DNA of 64,000 bases from a virus (lineage: Duplodnaviria; Caudoviricetes): IMG/VR virus record IMGVR_UViG_3300005326_000046, positions 16,004-80,003 of that record. One strand, given 5' to 3'. Below the pieces are notes generated by a model, which saw only the letters and a program-made list of their open reading frames with translations, searched no databases and had not been told where the DNA came from. The translations under genes were made by a program, and so were the position numbers. Positions 17,993 to 29,791 of this stretch are shown piece by piece. Within the stretch, counting starts at the first letter, position 1; every line of letters begins with the position of its first letter.

Positions 17993-18021
17993 TTGACATT
18001 CACCCTCACCTATGCTATTAT
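17993..18021 (+). promoter_or_regulatory. sigma70-like promoter, divergent from terS
   Basis: TTGACA-N17-TATTAT with TG extension. Confidence 0.75.
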
Positions 18022-18053: not shown

Positions 18054-18266
18054 TTGGATGATGCACTCACGAACACGATAGGCACAGAAGAAGCCGCGGC
18101 TTTCCTTGGCCTGTCGCAAGCTGGCGTGCGGTACCACCTGTACCGCGTCAAGGACCTGCGCCCCGACTTCAGGGACGGGAACAAGATTCTCTTCCTGAAG
18201 GATACGCTTGTCGAGTTCAACAAACGCAAGCGCAAACCAGGGCGTCCGGGCCTAGAACCAGACTGA
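18054..18266 (+). CDS. Excisionase/MerR-like HTH (HTH_17-type) DNA-binding protein
   Basis: IGTEEAAAFLGLSQAGVRY; SD GGAGGTG, TTG start; basic tail RKRKPGRP. Confidence 0.8.
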   Translation: MDDALTNTIGTEEAAAFLGLSQAGVRYHLYRVKDLRPDFRDGNKILFLKDTLVEFNKRKRKPGRPGLEPD

Positions 18267-18284: not shown

Positions 18285-18560
18285 TCAGTGCTTAGTTGCA
18301 CTGGAACCCCATAGCGTCTTGCGGATGACGTCTGGAATGCTAACGGGTTTGCGGATTACTCGCATGCTCCGGCTTGCGTTTGCCTCAATGGCGGCCTTTT
18401 CCTCGTGGTATACCTGTAGGCCGCGACCCAGCACCATGAGCACCAGGACAACGATGGGTAACCATGGGGCAGCCGGGAAGAGTTGGGGCAGTTGGTCCAC
18501 CAGCAGCGCGATAACCGCAATCCAGACGGCGTTAGGGATTTCGGGTAGTTTGATGCGCAT
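18285..18560 (-). CDS. Two-TM membrane protein, possibly holin-like
   Basis: SD GGAGG on the minus strand; two hydrophobic helices and a basic C-terminus. Confidence 0.6.
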   Translation of the reverse strand: MRIKLPEIPNAVWIAVIALLVDQLPQLFPAAPWLPIVVLVLMVLGRGLQVYHEEKAAIEANASRSMRVIRKPVSIPDVIRKTLWGSSATKH

Positions 18561-18651
18561 GTGTCAAGTACCTCCATGCGCAGTATAGCACATGGTGTTG
18601 AAAAACACACTATGTCAATTTCACGTCAGGTAGATTCACAAGGAGAGAGAG

Positions 18652-19347
18652 ATGGCAGTAAAGACACATGGTTATCGGCTGCACGTGGAGTTCATTACTC
18701 CCGTGCTTGGGACTCAGTCAACGCGTGAAGTAGCGACCGAGTTTATCGCCAAGAAGTCCGGCTTCGAGATCCCCCAGGATGAACAGGAAACACTCCCCGA
18801 AGCGCTGGAACGCGGAACCACCGTCTTTCACCGCAAAGACGACAAGCCGGTCTACTACGATTATCACATCCTCGGATTCCTGCGTGAAGCCGGATCTGTC
18901 CTCAATGGCAAGGTGACCGGTGGCGTCAAGAATCTCCGCAGTAAGGTTGAGAATAACGTCTTTGCGTTCCCCCGGCAGATTGAGCTACACGTGCCCGATG
19001 GAGCGGACTACGAGCCTTACAACGAGCGTGCGCTTCGAGCCAAGACGGCGCGGGGACCGCGCGTTACCCTCGTGCGATCCGAGCAGTTGCCAGAAGGCAC
19101 GTGGTTTGACGCCATGCTGGAAGTGATCGACGGCGAGATCACAGAGAACGTCCTGCGCGACTTGTTCGACTTCGGTTATTTGCGCGGCTTCGGTCAGTGG
19201 CGCACGGGTTGCTGGGGCCGGTTCGTGTACACGTTGACCAGCGACGAAGAGAAGCCAAAGGCCAAGGCAAAGAAGGTCGCGACGGATGATTCCGTCACGA
19301 CTATCTCGGGGATCCCCGTCATGCTGATGGAGGCACAACATGGATGA
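18652..19347 (+). CDS. Stand-alone Cas7-group RAMP-like protein (Vipr-like candidate RNA-guided effector)
   Basis: RAMP-type first strand YRLHVEFITPVLGT, internal ILGFLREA and RALRA motifs, C-terminal glycine-rich loop GYLRGFGQWRTGCWGRF; SD AAGGAG. No other cas genes in the window. Motif recognition only, no HMM run. Confidence 0.8.
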   Translation: MAVKTHGYRLHVEFITPVLGTQSTREVATEFIAKKSGFEIPQDEQETLPEALERGTTVFHRKDDKPVYYDYHILGFLREAGSVLNGKVTGGVKNLRSKVENNVFAFPRQIELHVPDGADYEPYNERALRAKTARGPRVTLVRSEQLPEGTWFDAMLEVIDGEITENVLRDLFDFGYLRGFGQWRTGCWGRFVYTLTSDEEKPKAKAKKVATDDSVTTISGIPVMLMEAQHG

Positions 19348-19597
19348 TGGTTCAGAATATGAATACGTTGATACGGTTCGAGTGCACTTTTATGTGATTG
19401 ATGACGAAGCGCGAGCATTGCGTAAGCTTGCCTATCTTGAATTGCGCACACCGCGCGACCAGGTGCGTTTCATGTTACGCCAGGAGCTTACGCGGCGCGG
19501 TTTGTTGCCGGTTGCGAAGGCCGCCGCGGATGACTCGACTACGACCAGCGCGGGCGTGCCCGTCATGGTGATGGAGATGAGCGATGCCGAAGTATGA
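19340..19597 (+). CDS. Ribbon-helix-helix-like small DNA-binding protein
   Basis: Strand VRVHFYV followed by helices EARALRKLAYLELRTPRDQVRFMLRQELTRRGLL; overlaps the RAMP gene stop. Confidence 0.6.
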   Translation: MDDGSEYEYVDTVRVHFYVIDDEARALRKLAYLELRTPRDQVRFMLRQELTRRGLLPVAKAAADDSTTTSAGVPVMVMEMSDAEV

Positions 19598-20279
19598 CAT
19601 TGGCAGCAAGGTGGCTTACAGGCACGAAGATGGCCGGCGCGTCGTCGGGCACGTGGTTGACTACTCGCCACATAGCGATCACTACACGATTCGCTTGCCA
19701 GAAGAACTGGTAACCGTCGACTCCGAGAACATCACTGCTGTGCCGAAGTACAACGTCGGCGACAAACTCAAGTACCGCAGTTCCGTAGGGTTCATAATTC
19801 CATGCACCGTGATTGCTGTCCACGAGCATGGTAAATTCGGACGCAAGTATGAGGTTCGGTTGGAAGGAAACCGGTGGCAGAATATCCCCATGCATCTTTG
19901 CGAAGAAGACATCGTAGACACACCAAGTGAAAACCCAGTGCCGCCTGTGGGCTCACGCGTCTTCTATCATGACTTCTCACATGCCGAGAGCGCGTGGAGC
20001 GGCAGGCTTGGTACTGTTGTTGGTCTTGCGGTGGGTGGTGTTCATGTGCAATTTGACGGCGAGAAAGACACGTGGAACTTGGAAACGGCCAAGGTGCACC
20101 TGGTTGACGACGCTTATGGATTGTTTGCGAACAACGACGCCCTCAAGTTAGCCAACAAGGAGATCGTTGTCCTCCGCGACGCGCTAAACTCCGCGAACAC
20201 TGAAGCAAACACGCTGCGCCGTTGTGTCGACAGAATTCATAGGCTTACCCATGAAGCACTGGGCCTAGATGATGACTAG
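19584..20279 (+). CDS. Three SH3/KOW-like repeats plus C-terminal coiled coil
   Basis: YDIGSKVAY, YNVGDKLKY, PPVGSRVFY; the stop codon abuts the pentamer array. Confidence 0.8.
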   Translation: MPKYDIGSKVAYRHEDGRRVVGHVVDYSPHSDHYTIRLPEELVTVDSENITAVPKYNVGDKLKYRSSVGFIIPCTVIAVHEHGKFGRKYEVRLEGNRWQNIPMHLCEEDIVDTPSENPVPPVGSRVFYHDFSHAESAWSGRLGTVVGLAVGGVHVQFDGEKDTWNLETAKVHLVDDAYGLFANNDALKLANKEIVVLRDALNSANTEANTLRRCVDRIHRLTHEALGLDDD

Positions 20280-21256
20280 GCATTGGCAGAGATCCGTCTT
20301 GCGACGCGCTGGCATAGCATGGCACGGTAACGCAACGGCGCCGCGTGGCGTCGCTCGGCAGTGGTAAAGTCAGGCGTAGCACAGTATCAGCATAGTACGG
20401 TCATGTGGAGCGGCGGCAAAGCGAAGTAAAGTCCCGCGGCGGCATGGTCTAGTCCAGTCGAGTCCCGCGCGGCAATGGCTTAGCGCAGCAGGGCGTTGGC
20501 ACAGCGACGTGTCGCAGCGCGATGGCGTGGCCTAGTGCAGTCGTGCAGTGGCACAGCTTGGCGAAGTCTCGTTTGGCACAGCAATGGCGAGGTATTGCGC
20601 GATTCGGCAAAGGCGAAGCGGTGTCCTGCACGGCAACAGTCTAGCGTGGAACAGTCAGGTATTGCCGGGTGTTGCGAGGCGTTGGCGAGGCGAGGCTTTG
20701 TGAGGCGTTGGTCCTGCATAGTTGGGTGATGCATTGGCAGGGTTCGGTCAGGCACTGCGCTGCGCTGGTAGTGCTCGGCAGTGTTAGGCATTGGCAAAGC
20801 GTTGTAGGCCGCTGTCCTGTCTCGTTCTGCATGGCGATGGTCAGGTGAGGCGCTCTAACGTGCCGCGGGGGCACGGCGCTGTTTTGCGGCCCTATGTTCT
20901 GCAATGGCGAAGTTCAGCCTTGTGCCGCGAAGGCATAGCCTGGCACAGTTCAGCATGGTAACGGTCTTGTTTGGCACACTGATGTCTAGCAACGGCCAAG
21001 CACAGCAAGGTCCGGCAATGGCATAGCCCAGTATGGCAGTGCGACGGCAAAGTTCTGCTTGCGCCGCAATGGCGAGGCATTGCCAAGCACAGTTTTGTCC
21101 GGCAATGGCAAAGCGTGGTTACGTTTGGTAATGGCATGGTGCAGCAAAGTAACGCATCGGTAAGGCCAAGTGACGTTTGGCGATGGTGTGGCATAGCTGC
21201 CTGCGGCAAAGTAACAGTGAGGTAAAGCTGAGTCATGCAGTGCAACGGTAAGTCCT
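20279..21256 (+). ncRNA. N-G-Y-N-N pentamer array, candidate guide-RNA (vrRNA-like) locus
   Basis: About 180 pentamers by hand parse (e.g. ggcga ggcga ggctt tgtga ggcgt t ggtcc tgcat agttg ggtga tgcat t). One extra nt recurs mostly every 26 nt. Only a handful of pentamers break the GY rule. No credible ORF. Confidence 0.85.
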
Positions 21257-21289
21257 CAAAACGATTGGCAAGGCCCGAAGGGGGAAACA

Positions 21290-21844
21290 ATGGCAAAACG
21301 GTGGTTCCACTGGAAGAAGTTAGGGCGATACGTCGAGATCGACACAACCCGCACGTGCAAGAACTGCGGCGCGGTGCATCCATACCTCGGAGGCGAATCG
21401 TACACGCTTCGTCAGTCTCTGGGCGCAAAGATCATCTGCCCAGTCTGCGACCACGAGTACGAGATGCGCACAAGCCAAGAGATTGTTCTGGGCCTTATCG
21501 AGCACATCGGGCACGTTGAGGCGGAGCGCGACTACTGGAAGAACTTGTGGTACAACGGCGGATACAAGAACCGGCCAGCACCGCGAGATAGGCCATGGGA
21601 CATCAAGGCCGTTGACGGCTCGCCAACCATCGTCTCAGGGCCGGCACTGTGTCCAAAGTGCGGCAAGCAGCAGGTTGAACTACACGCCGGTGTGCTGTAT
21701 CCTGGCAATGACCTTCCGCACATGGAGATTCGTTGTCCAGACTGCGGCCCGCTTCAGGCCAACCCCTACGAGCCGTCCGAGGATCCAATCAACAAGGATG
21801 CTCCACCGGTGAAGCCGTGGGCACCGCCGCAGGAGCAACTATGA
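21290..21844 (+). CDS. Multi-CxxC zinc-finger protein
   Basis: CKNC, CPVC, CPKC and CPDC pairs; SD AAGGGGG. Confidence 0.75.
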   Translation: MAKRWFHWKKLGRYVEIDTTRTCKNCGAVHPYLGGESYTLRQSLGAKIICPVCDHEYEMRTSQEIVLGLIEHIGHVEAERDYWKNLWYNGGYKNRPAPRDRPWDIKAVDGSPTIVSGPALCPKCGKQQVELHAGVLYPGNDLPHMEIRCPDCGPLQANPYEPSEDPINKDAPPVKPWAPPQEQL

Positions 21845-22080
21845 GGTACTGTTCGGCCTGTCGAATTCGAGAGGGAACGATTCACGCATTCCTGATCATG
21901 GACATCGTCGCGCCCACTTCAACGAAGCATAAGGACGTGAGCTTCTGGCTATGTCCACAATGCGAGAAGCTCACACAGAAGACGTTCACGCGCAACGCCG
22001 ACCAGAAGGAACGCGTTGCGCGCTTGCTTGCCGCAGAAGAACCGCGGTTCGCGAAAGGCAACAATGGTCAAGCAACTTGA
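21841..22080 (+). CDS. Small zinc-binding protein (ClpX/UVR-like CxxC...LCxxC)
   Basis: MRYCSAC...WLCPQC; ATGA overlap at 21841. Confidence 0.65.
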   Translation: MRYCSACRIREGTIHAFLIMDIVAPTSTKHKDVSFWLCPQCEKLTQKTFTRNADQKERVARLLAAEEPRFAKGNNGQAT

Positions 22081-22381: not shown

Positions 22382-22391
22382 AATGGAACAC

Positions 22392-22420
22392 TTGACAAGC
22401 TAGACAATACGTGATAGGAT
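22392..22420 (+). promoter_or_regulatory. sigma70-like promoter, probably yielding a leaderless mRNA
   Basis: TTGACA-N17-TAGGAT with TG extension; ATG 8 nt after the -10, no SD. Confidence 0.7.
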
Positions 22421-22427
22421 GTGAGTA

Positions 22428-22622
22428 ATGGAAAAAGAACAGTTGACCGTATCGGAGGCGGCACGATTGCTGGGAGTCAGTCCGGCAACGGTACGCAGGA
22501 TGTTGGACAGTGGAGTCATCCAAGGATGGCGCATTCCTCTTGGAACGCGTCATCGGCGAATTCCGCGCGCCGAGATAGAGCGCGTCATGCAAGGCACGGG
22601 GCCAGAGGGGGATACGTCATGA
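22428..22622 (+). CDS. Excisionase-family HTH (HTH_17) protein
   Basis: LTVSEAARLLGVSPATVRRMLDSGVIQGWRIP...RRIPRAEIER. Confidence 0.9.
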   Translation: MEKEQLTVSEAARLLGVSPATVRRMLDSGVIQGWRIPLGTRHRRIPRAEIERVMQGTGPEGDTS

Positions 22623-22900
22623 CCAAGCGATGCAAGCATACCCGCAACAATACGACACTCTTCAAGTTACGCGAGATCGGTACATATGCAATCCTGGGAT
22701 TCCCGAATCAACACGAAAACCCTAGACCCCTATGGGACCGCAGCCAATGGAGCGTTACGGTCAGGTGCGGTGACTGTAACGGGAGATTTCACTTCACGTC
22801 AAACCGTTATCCCTTGTGGGTTGGCCGCATCGTGGCGAAGATGGCGCCTGAGTTGTTCGAGCCGAAAGAGCGAGACGATGCAGGGGATGTCGCGACGTGA
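22619..22900 (+). CDS. Hypothetical protein with CxxC
   Basis: ATGA overlap; RCGDCNGRF. Confidence 0.6.
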   Translation: MTKRCKHTRNNTTLFKLREIGTYAILGFPNQHENPRPLWDRSQWSVTVRCGDCNGRFHFTSNRYPLWVGRIVAKMAPELFEPKERDDAGDVAT

Positions 22901-22925
22901 GAATTGAAACCATGAAATGGGGCAC

Positions 22926-22955
22926 TTGACAAAACGTTACGGAGTGTGATATCAT
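22926..22955 (+). promoter_or_regulatory. sigma70-like promoter, probably yielding a leaderless mRNA
   Basis: TTGACA-N18-TATCAT with TG extension; ATG at 22963. Confidence 0.65.
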
Positions 22956-22962
22956 GGACGTC

Positions 22963-23178
22963 ATGAGATGGTACTACACCATGGGTGAGGCGGCGCAATT
23001 CTTTGGCGTTTCAAGGCAGAGCATATGGCGCTGGTGCTACGACGGCAAACTCAAGACAGTACAGTTGCCGTCTGGCAGGCGCGTGATTCTACGCGATGAA
23101 GTAGATCGCGTCATGAACGCTGGATCACAAGAGGGGGAACTGGATGGAGAAGAAGCGAAGGCACTTTCCGACATTTGA
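22963..23178 (+). CDS. Excisionase-family HTH (HTH_17) protein
   Basis: YTMGEAAQFFGVSRQSIWRWCYDGKLKTVQLPSGRRVILRDEV. Confidence 0.88.
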   Translation: MRWYYTMGEAAQFFGVSRQSIWRWCYDGKLKTVQLPSGRRVILRDEVDRVMNAGSQEGELDGEEAKALSDI

Positions 23179-23362
23179 TGGACTGGATGTCAGTTTGTCT
23201 GACGACGGTGAATACATCGAACTTTCACAGATGGATCCGTCTGGCGACCCGGATCACATGATTTTGATACCGCTACAGTTAGCCAAAACGGTCAGCATAT
23301 GGCTCAGGGAAATTGAGAAGGAGTCCGGGTTTGACCAACAGAATAGGGAGAATGTGACATGA
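23144..23362 (+). CDS. Hypothetical protein
   Basis: SD AGAGGGGG. Confidence 0.65.
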   Translation: MEKKRRHFPTFDGLDVSLSDDGEYIELSQMDPSGDPDHMILIPLQLAKTVSIWLREIEKESGFDQQNRENVT

Positions 23363-23622
23363 CCGAAGAAATAGGCGTTCTTGCCGCGCGAGAAGAGACG
23401 CGGGTAGAAACCGGTAATCTAGAAGACAAGGAATGGAAGATCAGACCCAAGTGGGGAGCGACGATCTACATTGCAGAGTCATTGGATGACATCTTGATCA
23501 CACAGGCTCGCGAGTCTGAAGACGGGTTAGTGTCGATAGCGCTAGATGACATCGACACTGTCTGTCAGTTTTTACAAGAGGCAAAGCGGGGAGCAATCAA
23601 GCTGCGCACCGACAAGGAATAA
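23359..23622 (+). CDS. Hypothetical protein
   Basis: ATGA-coupled. Confidence 0.65.
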   Translation: MTEEIGVLAAREETRVETGNLEDKEWKIRPKWGATIYIAESLDDILITQARESEDGLVSIALDDIDTVCQFLQEAKRGAIKLRTDKE

Positions 23623-23625
23623 GGC

Positions 23626-24636
23626 ATGGCAGACTTTCGCAGTGTCCAAACCAGGATGTGGCGCGAAGACGAATGGTTCATGGATTTACCCACAGATGCG
23701 CGTCTGTTCTGGATCTATCTCTTCACGAATCCGAGCGCAAGCATCTGCGGCATGTACCGACTACCGCCCCGCACCATGTCATTCGAGAGTGGCCTATCAC
23801 ATGAGCGCGTGTTGGAGTTGTTGGACCAGTTTACACGGGCGGGCAAGATCGCGTATGAGGATGGAGTGATTTGGGTAGTCCGTATGCGCGACAATCAACT
23901 GGGCGACAAACTCAGTAAGACACAGCGTATAGGCATCATCAAAGACATGGCCAAGATTCCCCCGTCTCCGTTGAAGGATCACTATCTAGACCACTATGGA
24001 TACCCTATTGGTAGCCCATGCATGGCACCAGGTGAAGACGACGAAGGCCTAGATAGCCTATGCATAGGTCGCGCTACGTTACGTTACGATACTGTTACAG
24101 ATACGTTACGTCACGTGACGTCATCGGAGCCTATGCAACTTTGCAGTAGAACAGATGATGAAAACGACGATATCACAAATGACCATGATCGTTCCCTTGA
24201 AAACTCCGAAGGTGTCTCTCCCAAAAAAGAACCAGTGAAACGCAACGTAACGCCCATGAAACGCCATGAAACGGTAAAAACCGATCGTAAGAAGTCGATT
24301 GACGCGGCCTCTGGGCTCTTCAACACGCGCGTGCACATGATCACAGGGGGATTACCGCGCGACGAGCTTGAAGAGTTAGCCGGCACTCTGTTCGACATGG
24401 AGGTTCCAGGGTGGTTTGAGATGGCGATAGACGCGGCCGAAGCCGCGGGAGCACGCAACTGGGCCTACGTGCGCGCGTGTATCAAGAACGCCATTCGGGA
24501 AAAGCGCCCGCCAAGCGCGAAAGGCAAGGGGAATGGAGCCAATTTCAGAGGTGGTAACCGCCGCAATCCAAAACGCAACGACCCGACCCCGGAGGATATC
24601 GAAGAGTGGAACAACGCCCCAATCATCGAAGAGTGA
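23626..24636 (+). CDS. Phage replication initiator / replisome organiser (N-terminal wHTH, DnaD-like C-terminal motif)
   Basis: VQTRMWREDEW...ARLFWIYLFTNP...CGMYRL N-terminus; NWAYVRACIKN C-terminus; precedes a DnaC-like gene. Confidence 0.8.
   Translation: MADFRSVQTRMWREDEWFMDLPTDARLFWIYLFTNPSASICGMYRLPPRTMSFESGLSHERVLELLDQFTRAGKIAYEDGVIWVVRMRDNQLGDKLSKTQRIGIIKDMAKIPPSPLKDHYLDHYGYPIGSPCMAPGEDDEGLDSLCIGRATLRYDTVTDTLRHVTSSEPMQLCSRTDDENDDITNDHDRSLENSEGVSPKKEPVKRNVTPMKRHETVKTDRKKSIDAASGLFNTRVHMITGGLPRDELEELAGTLFDMEVPGWFEMAIDAAEAAGARNWAYVRACIKNAIREKRPPSAKGKGNGANFRGGNRRNPKRNDPTPEDIEEWNNAPIIEE
24075..24273. repeat. Short CGTTACG and (CA)TGAAACG repeats inside the initiator gene, candidate origin iterons
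   Basis: TACGTTACGTTACG 24075, TACGTTACGTCACGTGACGTCA 24102, CGTAACG 24246, TGAAACG x3 at 24236, 24257 and 24267. Confidence 0.4.
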
Positions 24637-25291
24637 ACCGTGCGCTACCTGCCACGGCATCAAGTGGGTCTTACCCAGAGTCGACGCGGAACACTTCTTG
24701 TTCGACATGCCGCAACCGTGCCCACAGTGCAACACCGGGCAAATGCACGTCTATCTATGCGCATTGCTCGGGATTCCTGCGGCGTTACAAGCAGCGGTCG
24801 CGGAACCTCCACGCAGGACCAAGGGCGGCGCGCAAGCAACGGCGCTGGTAAGGCGATTTGGAACAACCAATCAGGGCGTCTTGACCGTCAGTGGCCCCAA
24901 TGGTGTGGGCAAGTCCAGGATCGCGGCGTCGATCGTGATGCAGGCCTATCGCGCCGAACGTAGCACCTACTACGTGCGGTTGCCAGTCCTGCTGAATGGC
25001 ATCAGGGCAGGGTTTAGGGACGCGGATGCTAAGGCACGCTGGGACAAAATCATGGGCGTCCAGGTTCTAGCGCTTGACGAACTGACGCCTGGCGACAATG
25101 ATTGGGAGCGGCGCGAGGTGCAACGGATCATCACGGAGCGCTATGAGTTGTCCATGGTGGATTGCGGCACGGTGTTTTGTACGGAGTGCGACATGACAGA
25201 GTTTTCGGGTCACGCGTACAGCAGGCTCACGGATAAACGCTGTGCGGTTGTGCAATTGGAAGGACCAGATTTGCGGAAGATCAGGGAGTGA
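24533..25291 (+). CDS. DnaC/IstB-like AAA+ ATPase (helicase loader)
   Basis: Zn motifs CATC and CPQC, Walker A GPNGVGKS, Walker B LALDEL, RLTD arginine finger. Confidence 0.88.
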   Translation: MEPISEVVTAAIQNATTRPRRISKSGTTPQSSKSEPCATCHGIKWVLPRVDAEHFLFDMPQPCPQCNTGQMHVYLCALLGIPAALQAAVAEPPRRTKGGAQATALVRRFGTTNQGVLTVSGPNGVGKSRIAASIVMQAYRAERSTYYVRLPVLLNGIRAGFRDADAKARWDKIMGVQVLALDELTPGDNDWERREVQRIITERYELSMVDCGTVFCTECDMTEFSGHAYSRLTDKRCAVVQLEGPDLRKIRE

Positions 25292-25305
25292 AAGGGGGGA
25301 ATAGG

Positions 25306-27919: not shown

Positions 27920-28285
27920 GGCAAGCGTGTGTCAAACCAGGAAATTGCAGCAATGATCATCACAACCAAATACAACGACTTTGCTCCAGCCATATACAAT
28001 GTAGTTGACTACCGCAACGTTAGGGTGGCAAGCTTTTTGGAACCAGTTCGCGATGAGACTAGGGTTCCTAGCATCATTGCATACTATGAAGATAAGGGTT
28101 ATATCTGTGAAGTTCGGGAGAATCGCGGCGACTTCATGGACACCATACAGAACGTGATCATAGTAACACACAACACGGCTCAACACGTGAGTTTCCGTAG
28201 CTGGGGGGCTGCGGCTGCCTACGTGCGCAGCAACTACACGGCCCTTGCGGCCGCCAGAACAGCCTTTTACGCCAACGCCGACTAG
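27917..28285 (+). CDS. Hypothetical protein
   Basis: First gene behind cassette 1, SD GGAGG. Confidence 0.7.
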   Translation: MGKRVSNQEIAAMIITTKYNDFAPAIYNVVDYRNVRVASFLEPVRDETRVPSIIAYYEDKGYICEVRENRGDFMDTIQNVIIVTHNTAQHVSFRSWGAAAAYVRSNYTALAAARTAFYANAD

Positions 28286-28334
28286 ATATTCCCACCCACA
28301 GGCGAGCCGGCGCCTAATCCGGCAGGAGAGTGAC

Positions 28335-28763
28335 ATGTCAAATCTAGGAGTGGGATACTTGATCAACGCGATGCTTCGTGGCAATGTAGAATCTGTCAAT
28401 GTTGCGAAATCATCCTACGGCAAGACCATCGCGGCACTTGAGAAGGGCAGCCATGATGGCGAGGAAGCGTTGATCTTCACCTTCACCGATGGGGTAAAGA
28501 TGGCACTGTGGGACGATGCCCGCTCATGTTGTGAGAGTCGGTACCTGCACACGGACGATGATCTGTCCAGTGTTGTGGGCGCAGAACTCGTATTGTTGGA
28601 CGTGCGAGATGGCGGAGTGAAAGACGACGAAGACGGTAGTCATGAGTGGGCGTTCTTGCACATCATCACGGACAAAGCAACCGTGGTGGTAGAGACCCAC
28701 AACGAACACAACGGCTACTACGGCGGCATTGATCCGCGATGTGAACTCATCACGGAAGACTGA
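28335..28763 (+). CDS. Hypothetical phage protein (SCCESRY / HNEHNGYYGG motifs)
   Basis: SD AGGAGAG, ATG 28335. Confidence 0.75.
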   Translation: MSNLGVGYLINAMLRGNVESVNVAKSSYGKTIAALEKGSHDGEEALIFTFTDGVKMALWDDARSCCESRYLHTDDDLSSVVGAELVLLDVRDGGVKDDEDGSHEWAFLHIITDKATVVVETHNEHNGYYGGIDPRCELITED

Positions 28764-28777
28764 AACAAGGAGAGAAC

Positions 28778-29791
28778 ATGACTAACCAACCACAGAACCA
28801 GAAGCAAGGCCGCGAGTTGGCGCCGCGGCAGGAACAGGACGCAGAGATCGTTGTTCAGCCAAGCAACAAGATCCCAGATGAGATCCTGCAAGTTGCTGCG
28901 ACCCTTCACGCCATGGCGGTTGAGGGTGGAGGGGGTATCTCGAAGGCCGCCGCAATTCGCGCCGCACAGTACTTGCGCGATACGGGAGACACGCTTGGCC
29001 GCGACGTCTATCTGGGTACGAAGGGTAACGTTGCCGGCCAGATCATGGATGGCTATCAGGGCGTAGCAAAGCGCGTCAAGCGTGACTACTATGCCAAGTA
29101 CCGCCGCCCAACAGCAGAGGAAATGGAAGACCATGAGATGGACCCCAATGGCAGCGCGCTTATCTGTGAGGTGTACGTTTACGACCTCATGGAGAGGGCG
29201 CGGCGAGTGGGGATGCCGTATGAACCAATAATCGGAATCTGCTACTACGGGCCAAGGGTGGAGTTTCGCGTTCCTCCGACGAAGACGCGCCGCTGGGTGC
29301 TTGAGAAAAACGCCCTCAAAGATGCGCTGCGTCACGTGTCTGGCGTACCAACAACCCTCGGCGAAGCCATGGAGATCGCGGAAGAGCACGGCGTAGACCC
29401 AGACCTGATCAAGGACCTTGACGGCATCACGCCACGGCAGGCCATGGACTACGTTGATGCCGTTGTGCGCGTCCAATCTGCCGAGCCAGAAGAACCCGAG
29501 TCCGAGCCGTCAGAGGAAGGCCTGATCATCACGAAGGCCGCGGTCAAGGGATGGGAAAAGATGTGCCTGATCCTGGCGAACTCTGATCCGTACTTCGCGC
29601 TCGATGCCCCGGACAAGCCCAACGTGGACTTGATTGTCAAGTTGGCGACCCAGGCGCTTGGATTTGACACCGTAACCGTGAGGAACCTGTCCGAGATCCA
29701 GCAAGCGCTGGTCGAGTACCACAAGGCTGAACGGGAAGAGCTTGACGATGATCAGGGTGACCTGTTCTCAGAAGACCCAGAATGGAAATAG
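28778..29791 (+). CDS. Putative single-strand annealing recombinase (RecT/Red-beta-like)
   Basis: GYQG near the N-terminal core and EKNALKDALRHV resembling the K-x-A-x-x-x-A-L-R motif; acidic tail; lies near sbcC/sbcD. Confidence 0.5.
   Translation: MTNQPQNQKQGRELAPRQEQDAEIVVQPSNKIPDEILQVAATLHAMAVEGGGGISKAAAIRAAQYLRDTGDTLGRDVYLGTKGNVAGQIMDGYQGVAKRVKRDYYAKYRRPTAEEMEDHEMDPNGSALICEVYVYDLMERARRVGMPYEPIIGICYYGPRVEFRVPPTKTRRWVLEKNALKDALRHVSGVPTTLGEAMEIAEEHGVDPDLIKDLDGITPRQAMDYVDAVVRVQSAEPEEPESEPSEEGLIITKAAVKGWEKMCLILANSDPYFALDAPDKPNVDLIVKLATQALGFDTVTVRNLSEIQQALVEYHKAEREELDDDQGDLFSEDPEWK

What the first reader, a model, noticed from the sequence alone, without database searches (positions are those of the whole stretch)
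20279..21256. About 180 N-G-Y-N-N pentamers: a 1-kb array whose variable dinucleotides look like stored information
Hand parse, e.g. 20311 ggcat agcat ggcac ggtaa cgcaa c ggcgc cgcgt ggcgt cgctc ggcag t ggtaa agtca ggcgt agcac agtat c. Positions 2-3 are almost always G then C/T, position 1 is G>A>T/C, and positions 4-5 vary freely. Only a few pentamers deviate (20290, 20601, 20648, 20978, 21200). Unlike a satellite, the units are not converging on one sequence: the scaffold is kept and the NN is diverse, which suggests selection on both. The 5-nt and 26-nt periods are incompatible with a coding repeat.
Basis: seen in the sequence. Interest (0 to 1): 0.95.

Follow-up and report, generated by a model that had tools for sequence, protein, structure and literature searches.

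The report
Phage VIPR guide-RNA array
The 1-kb five-base repeat tract is the guide-RNA array of a phage VIPR system, a CRISPR-related RNA-guided DNA silencer first described in 2026 preprints, so it is real stored information but belongs to a kind already in print.

Summary
Window 20295-21251 parses into 185 N-G-Y-N-N units: G at position 2 in 179 and a pyrimidine at position 3 in 184. Positions 1, 4 and 5 are near-random. One extra base about every five units gives the 26-nt period. Chain score is 141, against 7.1±1.9 in shuffles.

It lies on the same strand as a Cas7-like RAMP gene (18652-19347), 948 bases downstream of it. About 73 of 80 viral loci encoding relatives of that protein carry the same kind of array just after the gene. 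This matches published VIPR systems (Vipr protein plus GGY/NN vrRNAs; bioRxiv 10.64898/2026.04.26.720920). It is the relaxed "YNNNG" form, without type II tails.

Family-level evidence adds two points:
- Each block between extra bases behaves as one guide.
- All three free letters seem to be read contiguously. One 7-unit block of a relative spells 21/21 bases of a sibling phage's AlpA gene start, and decoded arrays are enriched about twofold in TTGACA.

No target was found for this window's own guides.

This scan has noted VIPR arrays before on other DNA (144 notes, at least 121 genomes). Verdict: new member of a known kind.

The parts
17993..18021 (+). Promoter-like site (TTGACA, 17 nt, TATTAT, with TG) ahead of the operon. 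It probably drives the genes and the array.
   Evidence: 11 of 12 matches. This is a consensus match only. No terminator-like site lies between it and the array on this strand, apart from weak ones.
18054..18266 (+). 70-aa ORF that weakly resembles an HTH_17/AlpA-type helix-turn-helix regulator.
   Evidence: PF12728, E 0.002, below the curated cut-off. A relative (L075) has a Phage_AlpA gene in the same position, two genes upstream of its vipr.
18319..18588 (+). 89-aa ORF of unknown family between the HTH-like ORF and vipr.
   Evidence: no Pfam or PHROG match.
18652..19347 (+). vipr candidate: a 231-aa stand-alone Cas7-like RAMP. It has the G-loop GFGQWRTGCWGRF, a long beta-hairpin 'thumb' (residues 121-146) and an extra C-terminal tail of about 30 aa.
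   Evidence: AF2 mean pLDDT 81.7. Foldseek PDB top hits are type VII Cas7 and Csm3, E 2e-8. VIA-align gives Csm3 Z 11.8 (rmsd 3.8, 161 aligned) and type VII Cas7 Z 10.6. There are 132 unnamed homologues.
19340..19597 (+). 85-aa ORF overlapping the vipr stop. Its C-terminus repeats the Vipr tail. It may be a small DNA-binding accessory protein.
   Evidence: residues 57-79 match Vipr residues 202-227 at 62% identity, E 5e-7. No Pfam or PHROG match. No homologue in the 80 related loci.
19584..20279 (+). 231-aa ORF that ends where the array leader begins. It is a candidate accessory (vap-like) protein of unknown family.
   Evidence: only a faint SH3_15 hit (E 0.27). No homologue in the related loci. 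It is called as a gene in two independent assemblies.
20295..21251 (+). vrRNA array: 185 N-G-Y-N-N units in 35 blocks (mode five units, 26 nt). Each block is best written G-(GY-NNN)n.
20859..20875 (+). GC-rich hairpin followed by GCGCTGTTTT inside the array. It is terminator-like and splits the array into stretches of about 565 and 375 nt.
   Evidence: Its function was not tested.

Best explanation
The tract is the guide-RNA (vrRNA) array of a phage-encoded VIPR system.

Proposed mechanism:
1. The array is transcribed with the upstream Cas7-like Vipr gene.
2. Vipr protomers bind one per five-base unit and hold the conserved G-Y.
3. The free letters are presented to base-pair with double-stranded DNA of rival mobile elements, whose transcription is then blocked.

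In this Vipr clade the first G of the published GGY is relaxed to N. A single extra base (a block-initial G) cuts the array into blocks of 4-7 units, so each block reads G-(GY-NNN)n.

I infer that each block is one short guide. I also infer that all three free letters of each unit are read, so that a five-unit block specifies 15 contiguous target bases. Promoters and gene starts of sibling phages are the likely targets.

Shown here:
- the array and its statistics;
- the RAMP fold of the upstream gene;
- the family-wide pairing of gene and array;
- one exact natural target in a relative;
- the motif enrichment in decoded arrays.

Inferred: transcription, processing, protein binding, silencing, and the reading rule for this particular phage.
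For: Array statistics.

Cas7-like fold of ORF 18652-19347:
- Foldseek E 2e-8 to type VII Cas7 and Csm3.
- VIA-align Z 11.8 to Csm3, rmsd 3.8, 161 residues aligned.
- Profile against PDB sequences: type VII Cas7 E 3e-4; 'SUSP1 Vipr protein' 36pp_D E 0.42 over the G-loop.
- hhalign against the SUSP1 Vipr ORF: probability 61%, E 7.8e-5, aligning GQWR with GDWR.

Gene-array pairing: about 73 of 80 IMG/VR loci encoding relatives carry an NGY array on the gene's strand, directly after the gene in most. These hold 8085 units, 87% of them NGY, with an extra base every 4-7 units. Position 1 is G in 74% of units that start a block and in 25-33% of the others.

Published mechanism. The classification methods list YNNNG repeats, and 'staggered' arrays are mentioned.

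RNA structure: the array RNA folds less well than all 200 shuffles, z +2.3.

No self-target: the best self match is 3 mismatches in 15.

Reading rule:
- A 7-unit block at L074:6700-6735 decodes to 21/21 bases of L075:1728-1748. That site is the ribosome-binding site and ATG of a Phage_AlpA gene (PF05930, E 3.7e-12) two genes upstream of the sibling phage's vipr.
- The match starts and ends exactly at the block borders, and L074's own site has 4 mismatches.
- Triplet-shuffled arrays give 0.0035 such matches per replicate.
- Decoded arrays hold TTGAC 43 times against 22.4±4.3, and TTGACA 18 times against 7.6±2.7, when only the third letters are shuffled.
- In the window TTGAC occurs 3 times against 0.8, P 0.03.
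Against: - No natural target was found for any of this window's 35 guides in IMG/VR or JGI metagenome scans, so its function is inferred by analogy.
- Sequence similarity to the characterised SUSP1 Vipr is confined to the G-loop and is weak.
- There is no invariant 3' tail or pseudoknot as in type II vrRNAs.
- The three-letter contiguous reading rests on one exact match plus motif statistics in relatives. The published rule for SUSP1 skips the third base.
- Semi-conserved block ends could bias composition tests.
- Five-unit guides specify only 10-15 bases.
- Two ORFs without homologues sit between vipr and the array, unlike the related loci fetched here, where the array mostly follows the gene directly.
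- No expression data could be obtained.
Confidence: 0.85

Rival explanations
1. It is a VIPR array that follows the published rule unchanged. Only positions 4-5 are read, every third target base is skipped, position 1 is merely unconstrained, and the extra base is a tolerated slip rather than a guide boundary.
For: The 1-nt skip rule is shown experimentally for SUSP1 and P. fulva. Near-identical block pairs differ as often at position 1 as at positions 4 and 5. The decoded 80-aa string has no protein match.
Against: In the L074 to L075 match all seven third letters agree as well. TTGACA and TATAAT enrichment disappears when only the third letters are shuffled. TAG and TAA triplets are depleted and TAT enriched. 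Block-initial G is kept in 74-98% of blocks across the clade. NNx searches spanning junctions found nothing.
Confidence: 0.25
2. The long transcript is not cut into guides. It acts as one scaffold or decoy that soaks up Vipr protein (its own or a rival's), or builds a long filament, with no sequence-specific target.
For: No target was found for the window's guides. There are no tails or ribozymes marking processing sites.
Against: A pure scaffold needs no near-maximal entropy at three positions, and would not give promoter-like words in decoded form. Sibling phages share some blocks and differ in others. One block matches a sibling's regulator start exactly.
Confidence: 0.06
3. It is a double-stranded DNA element, for example a partition or packaging site bound by a protein every half helical turn (5.2 bp), and not an RNA gene.
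For: The mean unit length of 5.2 bp equals half a DNA turn.
Against: The motif is strand-specific and lies on the strand of the RAMP gene, downstream of it, in about 73 loci. The partner protein has an RNA-binding RAMP fold. Block length varies from 4 to 7 units within and between arrays, so helical phasing is not kept.
Confidence: 0.03
4. It is a translated low-complexity ORF.
For: Mechanical ORFs of 60-178 aa overlap the tract on both strands, and one gene caller placed a minus-strand gene there.
Against: Conservation has periods of 5 and 26 bases, not 3. Arrays in relatives share the scaffold but not the sequence, length or any frame.
Confidence: 0.01

Closest known systems
VIPR systems with YNNNG repeats and 'staggered' vrRNA arrays (bioRxiv 10.64898/2026.04.26.720920, methods and fig. 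S17-S18 legends)
   Same: - It is phage-encoded.
- It has a lone Cas7-like RAMP with an adjacent same-strand array of pentamers.
- The G-Y core is fixed and the first G is relaxed.
- Units abut without tails.
   Different: I could not see the figures or tables, so I cannot confirm that 'staggered' means this 5n+1 block layout, or say which of the seven types this clade is. The preprint states that this array form was not confirmed by small-RNA sequencing, and it gives no reading rule for it in the text I could read. This locus also has two unique ORFs between vipr and the array, and a tail on Vipr.
Type II VIPR of Escherichia phage SUSP1 (KT454805.2: vipr 28474-29061, vap1 28031-28471; PDB 36pp)
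   Same: - The protein is a small RAMP with a G-loop of the form G-x-W-R.
- Guides are built from five-base units.
- The system is phage-borne.
- There is no self-targeting.
- Short guides are functional there (a 6-unit, 18-bp footprint).
   Different: - SUSP1 has strict GGY units and no six-base units.
- Its vrRNAs are about 100 nt, each ending in an invariant pseudoknot tail.
- Its G-loop is GDWR rather than GQWR.
- Its third target base is skipped.
- Protein similarity to this clade is confined to the G-loop.
Cas7 backbone subunits of class 1 CRISPR effectors (Csm3, Cmr4, type VII Cas7)
   Same: The fold is the same (Z 10.6-11.8). Both have the glycine-rich loop and thumb hairpin, and one protomer binds per fixed number of guide nucleotides.
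   Different: - There is no CRISPR repeat-spacer array and no other cas-type gene among the ORFs next to it that I scanned; the rest of the genome was not searched for cas genes.
- The guide information is interleaved with scaffold letters every five bases.
- The system is virus-encoded.

Membership tests
VIPR system | Stand-alone RAMP protein (RRM core, glycine-rich loop, thumb) outside a CRISPR-Cas locus | tested here: met
   Cas7/Csm3 fold with a G-loop at residues 179-191 and a beta-hairpin at 121-146. The neighbouring ORFs scanned have no cas family hits. A genome-wide cas or CRISPR search was not run.
VIPR system | Adjacent tandem pentamer array with a conserved GGY or related core and hypervariable other positions, on the gene's strand | tested here: met
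   185 units with G2 in 97% and Y3 in 99%. The same pairing occurs in about 73 of 80 related loci.
VIPR system | Sequence homology of the protein to a characterised Vipr | tested here: inconclusive
   Only the G-loop region aligns. hhalign probability is 61%, E 7.8e-5. Profile against 36pp_D 'SUSP1 Vipr protein' gives E 0.42. tblastn does not reach SUSP1.
VIPR system | Phage or provirus encoded | tested here: met
   G000 is a virus record of 80,003 bases. Relatives are IMG/VR contigs.
VIPR system | vrRNAs are expressed and co-purify with Vipr | not testable with these tools
VIPR system | Guides do not match their own genome | tested here: met
   the best self matches are at chance level (3 mismatches in 15).
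VIPR system | Guides match rival mobile elements | tested here: inconclusive
   None was found for this window. One exact block-sized match was found in a relative trio.
VIPR system | Accessory vap gene next to vipr | tested here: inconclusive
   Two ORFs (19340-19597 and 19584-20279) lie between vipr and the array. They have no family match and no homologue in related loci.
Type II VIPR (SUSP1-like) | Strict GGY, 9-16 uninterrupted units per vrRNA, invariant 3' tail with pseudoknot | tested here: not met
   Position 1 is G in only 43% of units. There is an extra base every five units or so, and no recurring tail. SUSP1's own arrays are shown for contrast.
Type II VIPR (SUSP1-like) | Target read as NN with every third base skipped | tested here: inconclusive
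   Family data favour reading of the third letter too. This is not shown for this phage and has not been tested experimentally.
CRISPR array | Identical direct repeats of 20-50 nt separated by unique spacers | tested here: not met
   Tandem Repeats Finder reports only a 23-nt GCGAG run. The periodicity is 5 and 26 nt with no identical repeat.

The most novel reading that the evidence does not exclude
In this large Vipr clade (G-loop GQWR, units G-Y-N-N-N) the code differs from the published one. Only two scaffold letters are hidden, and three of every five RNA letters pair with three contiguous DNA bases, with no skipped base. A single block-initial G delimits guides as short as 12-21 target bases. 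Dozens of such guides are strung together with no tails. They are aimed largely at sigma-70-type promoters and gene starts of sibling phages.
Probability: 0.45. Interest if true: 0.65.

Novelty: new member of a known kind. Interest (0 to 1): 0.4.

Why it matters
VIPR is a very recent class of RNA-guided DNA recognition, proposed to predate CRISPR. This locus adds a well-preserved example from an uncultured 80-kb phage; the closest cellular relatives of its Vipr are in Chloroflexota MAGs.

The clade it belongs to is large. It has at least 132 protein clusters and about 73 arrays of up to 1.6 kb.

If the block-wise, three-of-five contiguous reading holds, this clade packs 50% more information per unit than the SUSP1 type. 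It would also use the shortest known natural guides, and it would show that the reading rule co-varies with one G-loop residue (D against Q). That would matter for understanding how the code evolved and for designing compact programmable repressors.

As an observation in this window it is an instance of something already in print, and this scan has already seen it many times.

Tried and rejected
- **Rfam:** no family matched in 19500-22000.
- **blastn:** no match for the locus against 50,697 phage records.
- **Close variants:** two other assemblies carry the same phage, but they are 100% identical over 18652-21900. No unit gain or loss could be read. The 90%-cluster mate P0123 could not be fetched.
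- **One long gapped copy of a gene:** the array decoded as 184 codons has 2 stops against 5.4 expected (P 0.07). An 80-aa decoded stretch found no protein among 5.8 billion. Rejected.
- **NNx searches with junction gaps of 0-4:** these were run against 0.9-2.1 Mb of related loci and the phage's own genome and gave only chance-level hits. A 19/20 hit under the zero-skip rule fell in an A/T-rich start region and was judged chance.
- **IMG/VR and metagenome scans:**
  - A 10-unit NNx pattern gave 0 hits.
  - Decoded blocks at 20441, 20550 and 21071 gave 0 hits in IMG/VR, and the first two gave 0 in JGI metagenomes.
  - A 16-nt promoter-like core gave 45 hits, all compatible with chance.
- **Sibling phages sought through neighbouring genes:**
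  - The 336-aa protein at 23626-24636 found none.
  - The HTH protein at 22428-22622 found three short contigs. One has the same promoter core as this phage, and none matches a guide better.
- **More sibling groups:** whole contigs of four further sibling groups were searched for a second block-sized exact match, and none was found.
- **Tail docking:** a complex prediction of the 231-aa ORF (19584-20279) with the Vipr tail returned no verdict.
Full report
**1. The observation**

Window 20279-21256 is non-coding and strongly periodic. Base identity between positions k apart peaks at k = 5 (0.38), 26 (0.45), 31, 36 and 52, against about 0.265 in dinucleotide-preserving shuffles, so z is 9 to 13. 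Tandem Repeats Finder sees almost nothing. The units share a scaffold, not a sequence.

I wrote a chaining parser that links N-G-Y starts by steps of 5 bases, with penalties for steps of 6 or 4. It gives one chain at 20295-21251 with 185 units and a score of 141, against 7.1±1.9 in shuffles:
- Position 2 is G in 179 of 185 units, and position 3 is C or T in 184 of 185.
- Positions 1, 4 and 5 carry 1.84, 1.88 and 1.91 bits of entropy.
- 33 units have six bases. The sixth base is a pyrimidine in 30 of them.
- These six-base units cut the array into 35 blocks, 18 of which have exactly five units. This is the source of the 26-nt period.

The qualification is that the block ends are semi-conserved.

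**2. What surrounds it**

All ORFs from 18054 to beyond 25000 are on the plus strand. A strong promoter-like site lies at 17993-18021.

The ORF at 18652-19347 has no Pfam, PHROG or PDB sequence match. Its AlphaFold model (pLDDT 81.7) is nevertheless a Cas7-type RAMP:
- Foldseek top hits are type VII Cas7 and Csm3, E 2e-8.
- VIA-align gives Csm3 Z 11.8 (rmsd 3.8, 161 residues aligned), Cmr-beta 11.4 and type VII Cas7 10.6.
- It has a glycine-rich loop GFGQWRTGCWGRF and a long beta-hairpin at residues 121-146.

Two overlapping ORFs follow, at 19340-19597 and 19584-20279. The last stop codon abuts the array leader.

**3. Relatives**

The protein has 132 unnamed homologues at E ≤ 0.001, most of them about 198 aa long. 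I fetched 80 IMG/VR loci and 17 loci from GTDB genomes. The closest of the latter are in Chloroflexota and Blastocatellia MAGs.

My parser finds an N-G-Y array on the gene's strand in about 73 of the 80 viral loci, directly after the gene in most. Pooled, these hold 8085 units, 87% of them N-G-Y, with a six-base step every 4-7 units. Position 1 is G in 74% of units that open a block and in 25-33% of the others.

Block length is typical of each phage: 4-5 units in L042, 6 in L003 and L015, and 5 here. Every member with a readable G-loop has G-x-G-Q-W-R/H.

Only the RAMP gene is widely shared among neighbouring genes. The two ORFs between vipr and the array here have no homologue in those loci.

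**4. What it is**

The literature search then found three 2026 preprints.

They describe Viral Interference Programmable Repeat systems. A lone, phage-encoded RAMP (Vipr) polymerises on a vrRNA built of GGY/NN pentamers, one protomer per unit. It hides GGY and presents NN to double-stranded DNA, skipping every third target base, and it silences rival elements. The classification methods list alternative repeats NNNGG, YNNNG and NNNNG. The text also mentions 'staggered arrays' that were not confirmed by RNA sequencing.

N-G-Y-N-N is YNNNG in another register. The locus therefore meets the defining features I could test: a stand-alone RAMP, an adjacent same-strand pentamer array, a viral genome, and no self-target.

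It is not the characterised type II. SUSP1's arrays (KT454805.2) have strict GGT/GGC units, no six-base units, and an invariant tail after each run of about 15 units.

Protein similarity to SUSP1 Vipr is limited to the G-loop:
- hhalign probability 61%, E 7.8e-5.
- Profile against PDB chain 36pp_D: E 0.42.

In SUSP1 the G-loop residues D177, W178 and R179 contact G1, G2 and Y3. Here the aligned residues are Q, W and R. The change at the G1-reading residue goes together with the loss of the G1 requirement. This is an inference from two clades.

The array RNA folds worse than all 200 shuffles (−115.1 against −125.7±4.6 kcal/mol, z +2.3). That fits an RNA kept single-stranded for coating by protein.

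**5. How this clade may read its guides**

In the middle units, position 1 is as free as positions 4 and 5. A unit can therefore be written G-Y-N-N-N and a block G-(GY-NNN)n. I decoded each block as the run of N4-N5-N1 triplets.

(a) *An exact natural target in a relative.* Among 1011 distinct blocks searched against 2.2 Mb of related loci, one 7-unit block (L074:6700-6735) matches 21 of 21 bases at L075:1728-1748.
- The match begins and ends exactly at the block borders.
- The target is the ribosome-binding site and start codon of a Phage_AlpA regulator gene (PF05930, E 3.7e-12), two genes upstream of that phage's vipr.
- L073, L074 and L075 come from sibling phages with 85-93% nucleotide identity.
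- L074's own homologous site has four mismatches.
- Windows shifted by two units gave no comparable hit.
- Triplet-shuffled arrays gave an average of 0.0035 exact matches of a block of seven or more units per replicate, over 2000 replicates.
- All seven third letters agree, which is not expected if they were ignored.

(b) *Promoter-like words.* Decoded arrays of the family contain TTGAC 43 times, against 22.4±4.3 when only the third letters are shuffled. TTGACA occurs 18 times against 7.6±2.7, TATAAT 26 against 16.6±3.7, and GGAGG 61 against 47.0±6.0 (shuffling whole triplets gives a similar result).

(c) *Triplet usage.* Against a Markov expectation, TAG and TAA are among the most depleted triplets and TAT is the most enriched.

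Together these results favour 'one block = one guide, three of five letters read, contiguous target, often a promoter or gene start of a sibling phage'. I put this at about 45-55%. It rests on one exact match plus statistics, and the published rule for SUSP1 skips the third base.

**6. This window's guides**

The 35 decoded blocks are listed. None matches the phage's own genome better than chance.

Three contain TTGAC (P 0.03). The block at 20550 reads TGGAAC-T-CTTGACAA. The phage's own promoter-like site at 22385-22399, upstream of an HTH_17 gene at 22428-22622, reads TGGAAC-A-CTTGACAA. This 14-of-15 agreement is within chance for the search space. It resembles the L074 case (a near-self site, presumably exact in a rival), so I record it as a lead only.

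No target was found for any guide tried, by exact scans of IMG/VR and JGI metagenomes or by searches for sibling phages through neighbouring genes. Section 8 lists the attempts.

**7. Other points**

The Vipr here carries an extra tail of about 30 aa. Residues 202-227 are 62% identical to the C-terminus of the 85-aa ORF next door (E 5e-7). This suggests a shared docking peptide, perhaps for the third ORF, but the idea is untested.

A GC hairpin with a T-run at 20859-20884 interrupts the array.

**8. What I tried that failed**

- Rfam had no family in 19500-22000, and blastn of the locus against 50,697 phage records found nothing.
- Two other assemblies carry this phage but are 100% identical over 18652-21900, so no gain or loss of units could be read. 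The 90%-cluster mate P0123 could not be fetched.
- Reading the array as one long gapped copy of a gene is rejected. The 184 decoded codons have 2 stops against 5.4 expected (P 0.07), and an 80-aa decoded stretch found no protein among 5.8 billion.
- NNx searches with junction gaps of 0-4, against 0.9-2.1 Mb of related loci and the phage's own genome, gave only chance-level hits. A 19/20 hit under the zero-skip rule fell in an A/T-rich start region and was judged chance.
- IMG/VR and metagenome scans found nothing real:
  - a 10-unit NNx pattern gave 0 hits;
  - decoded blocks at 20441, 20550 and 21071 gave 0 hits in IMG/VR, and the first two gave 0 in JGI metagenomes;
  - a 16-nt promoter-like core gave 45 hits, all compatible with chance.
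- Sibling phages were sought through the 336-aa protein at 23626-24636, which found none. The HTH protein at 22428-22622 found three short contigs. One has the same promoter core as this phage and none matches a guide better.
- Whole contigs of four further sibling groups gave no second block-sized exact match.
- A complex prediction of the 231-aa ORF (19584-20279) with the Vipr tail returned no verdict.

**9. Verdict**

The class is already published (April-October 2026), and this scan has flagged it many times on other DNA: 144 notes in at least 121 genomes, several on YNNNG or G-punctuated arrays.

I file it as a new member of a known kind. The reading-rule result for this clade is the part that could be new.

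Noticed in passing
window 19255-19332 and 19508-19576: The C-terminal tail of the Vipr candidate (residues 202-227) and the C-terminus of the adjacent 85-aa ORF (residues 57-79) share a 26-residue motif (D-D-S-x-T-T..G-x-P-V-M-x-M-E; 62% identity, E 5e-7). Most Vipr homologues lack this tail. It may be a shared docking peptide.
   Followed up: partly
L074:6700-6735 and L075:1728-1748: A 7-unit guide block of one phage decodes to 21/21 bases of the ribosome-binding site and ATG of a Phage_AlpA gene next to the vipr operon of a sibling phage. The phage's own site differs at 4 bases.
   Followed up: yes
window 20550-20585 and 22385-22399: One guide block decodes to a promoter-like string that agrees at 14 of 15 bases with the phage's own promoter-like site (TTGACA at 22392) upstream of an HTH_17 gene. 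This is within chance, but it has the same pattern as the L074 case.
   Followed up: partly
window 20859-20884: A 6-bp GC stem followed by a T-run lies inside the array and splits it into two sub-arrays. It may be an internal terminator or attenuator.
   Followed up: no
L221 and L222, matching window 18652-21900: The same phage segment is 100% identical in two other public datasets (JGI 3300001866 and SRR5248219). The look-up read six contigs that carry the same protein.
   Followed up: yes
window 21841-22080: A 79-aa ORF with no Pfam match belongs to a small family found beside vipr or its array in 13 of the related loci. It is the only neighbour besides vipr that recurs.
   Followed up: partly
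window 22428-25300: Downstream lies a run of small HTH_17/excisionase-like genes (22428-22622 and 22954-23178), a 336-aa protein of unknown family, and an IstB-like ATPase gene. This looks like an early regulatory and replication module.
   Followed up: partly
L001-L100 arrays (family level): Decoded arrays are enriched about twofold in TTGAC/TTGACA, and also in TATAAT, relative to shuffles of the third letters only. The reverse-complement words GTCAA and TGTCAA are about as frequent, but were not tested against a null.
   Followed up: partly
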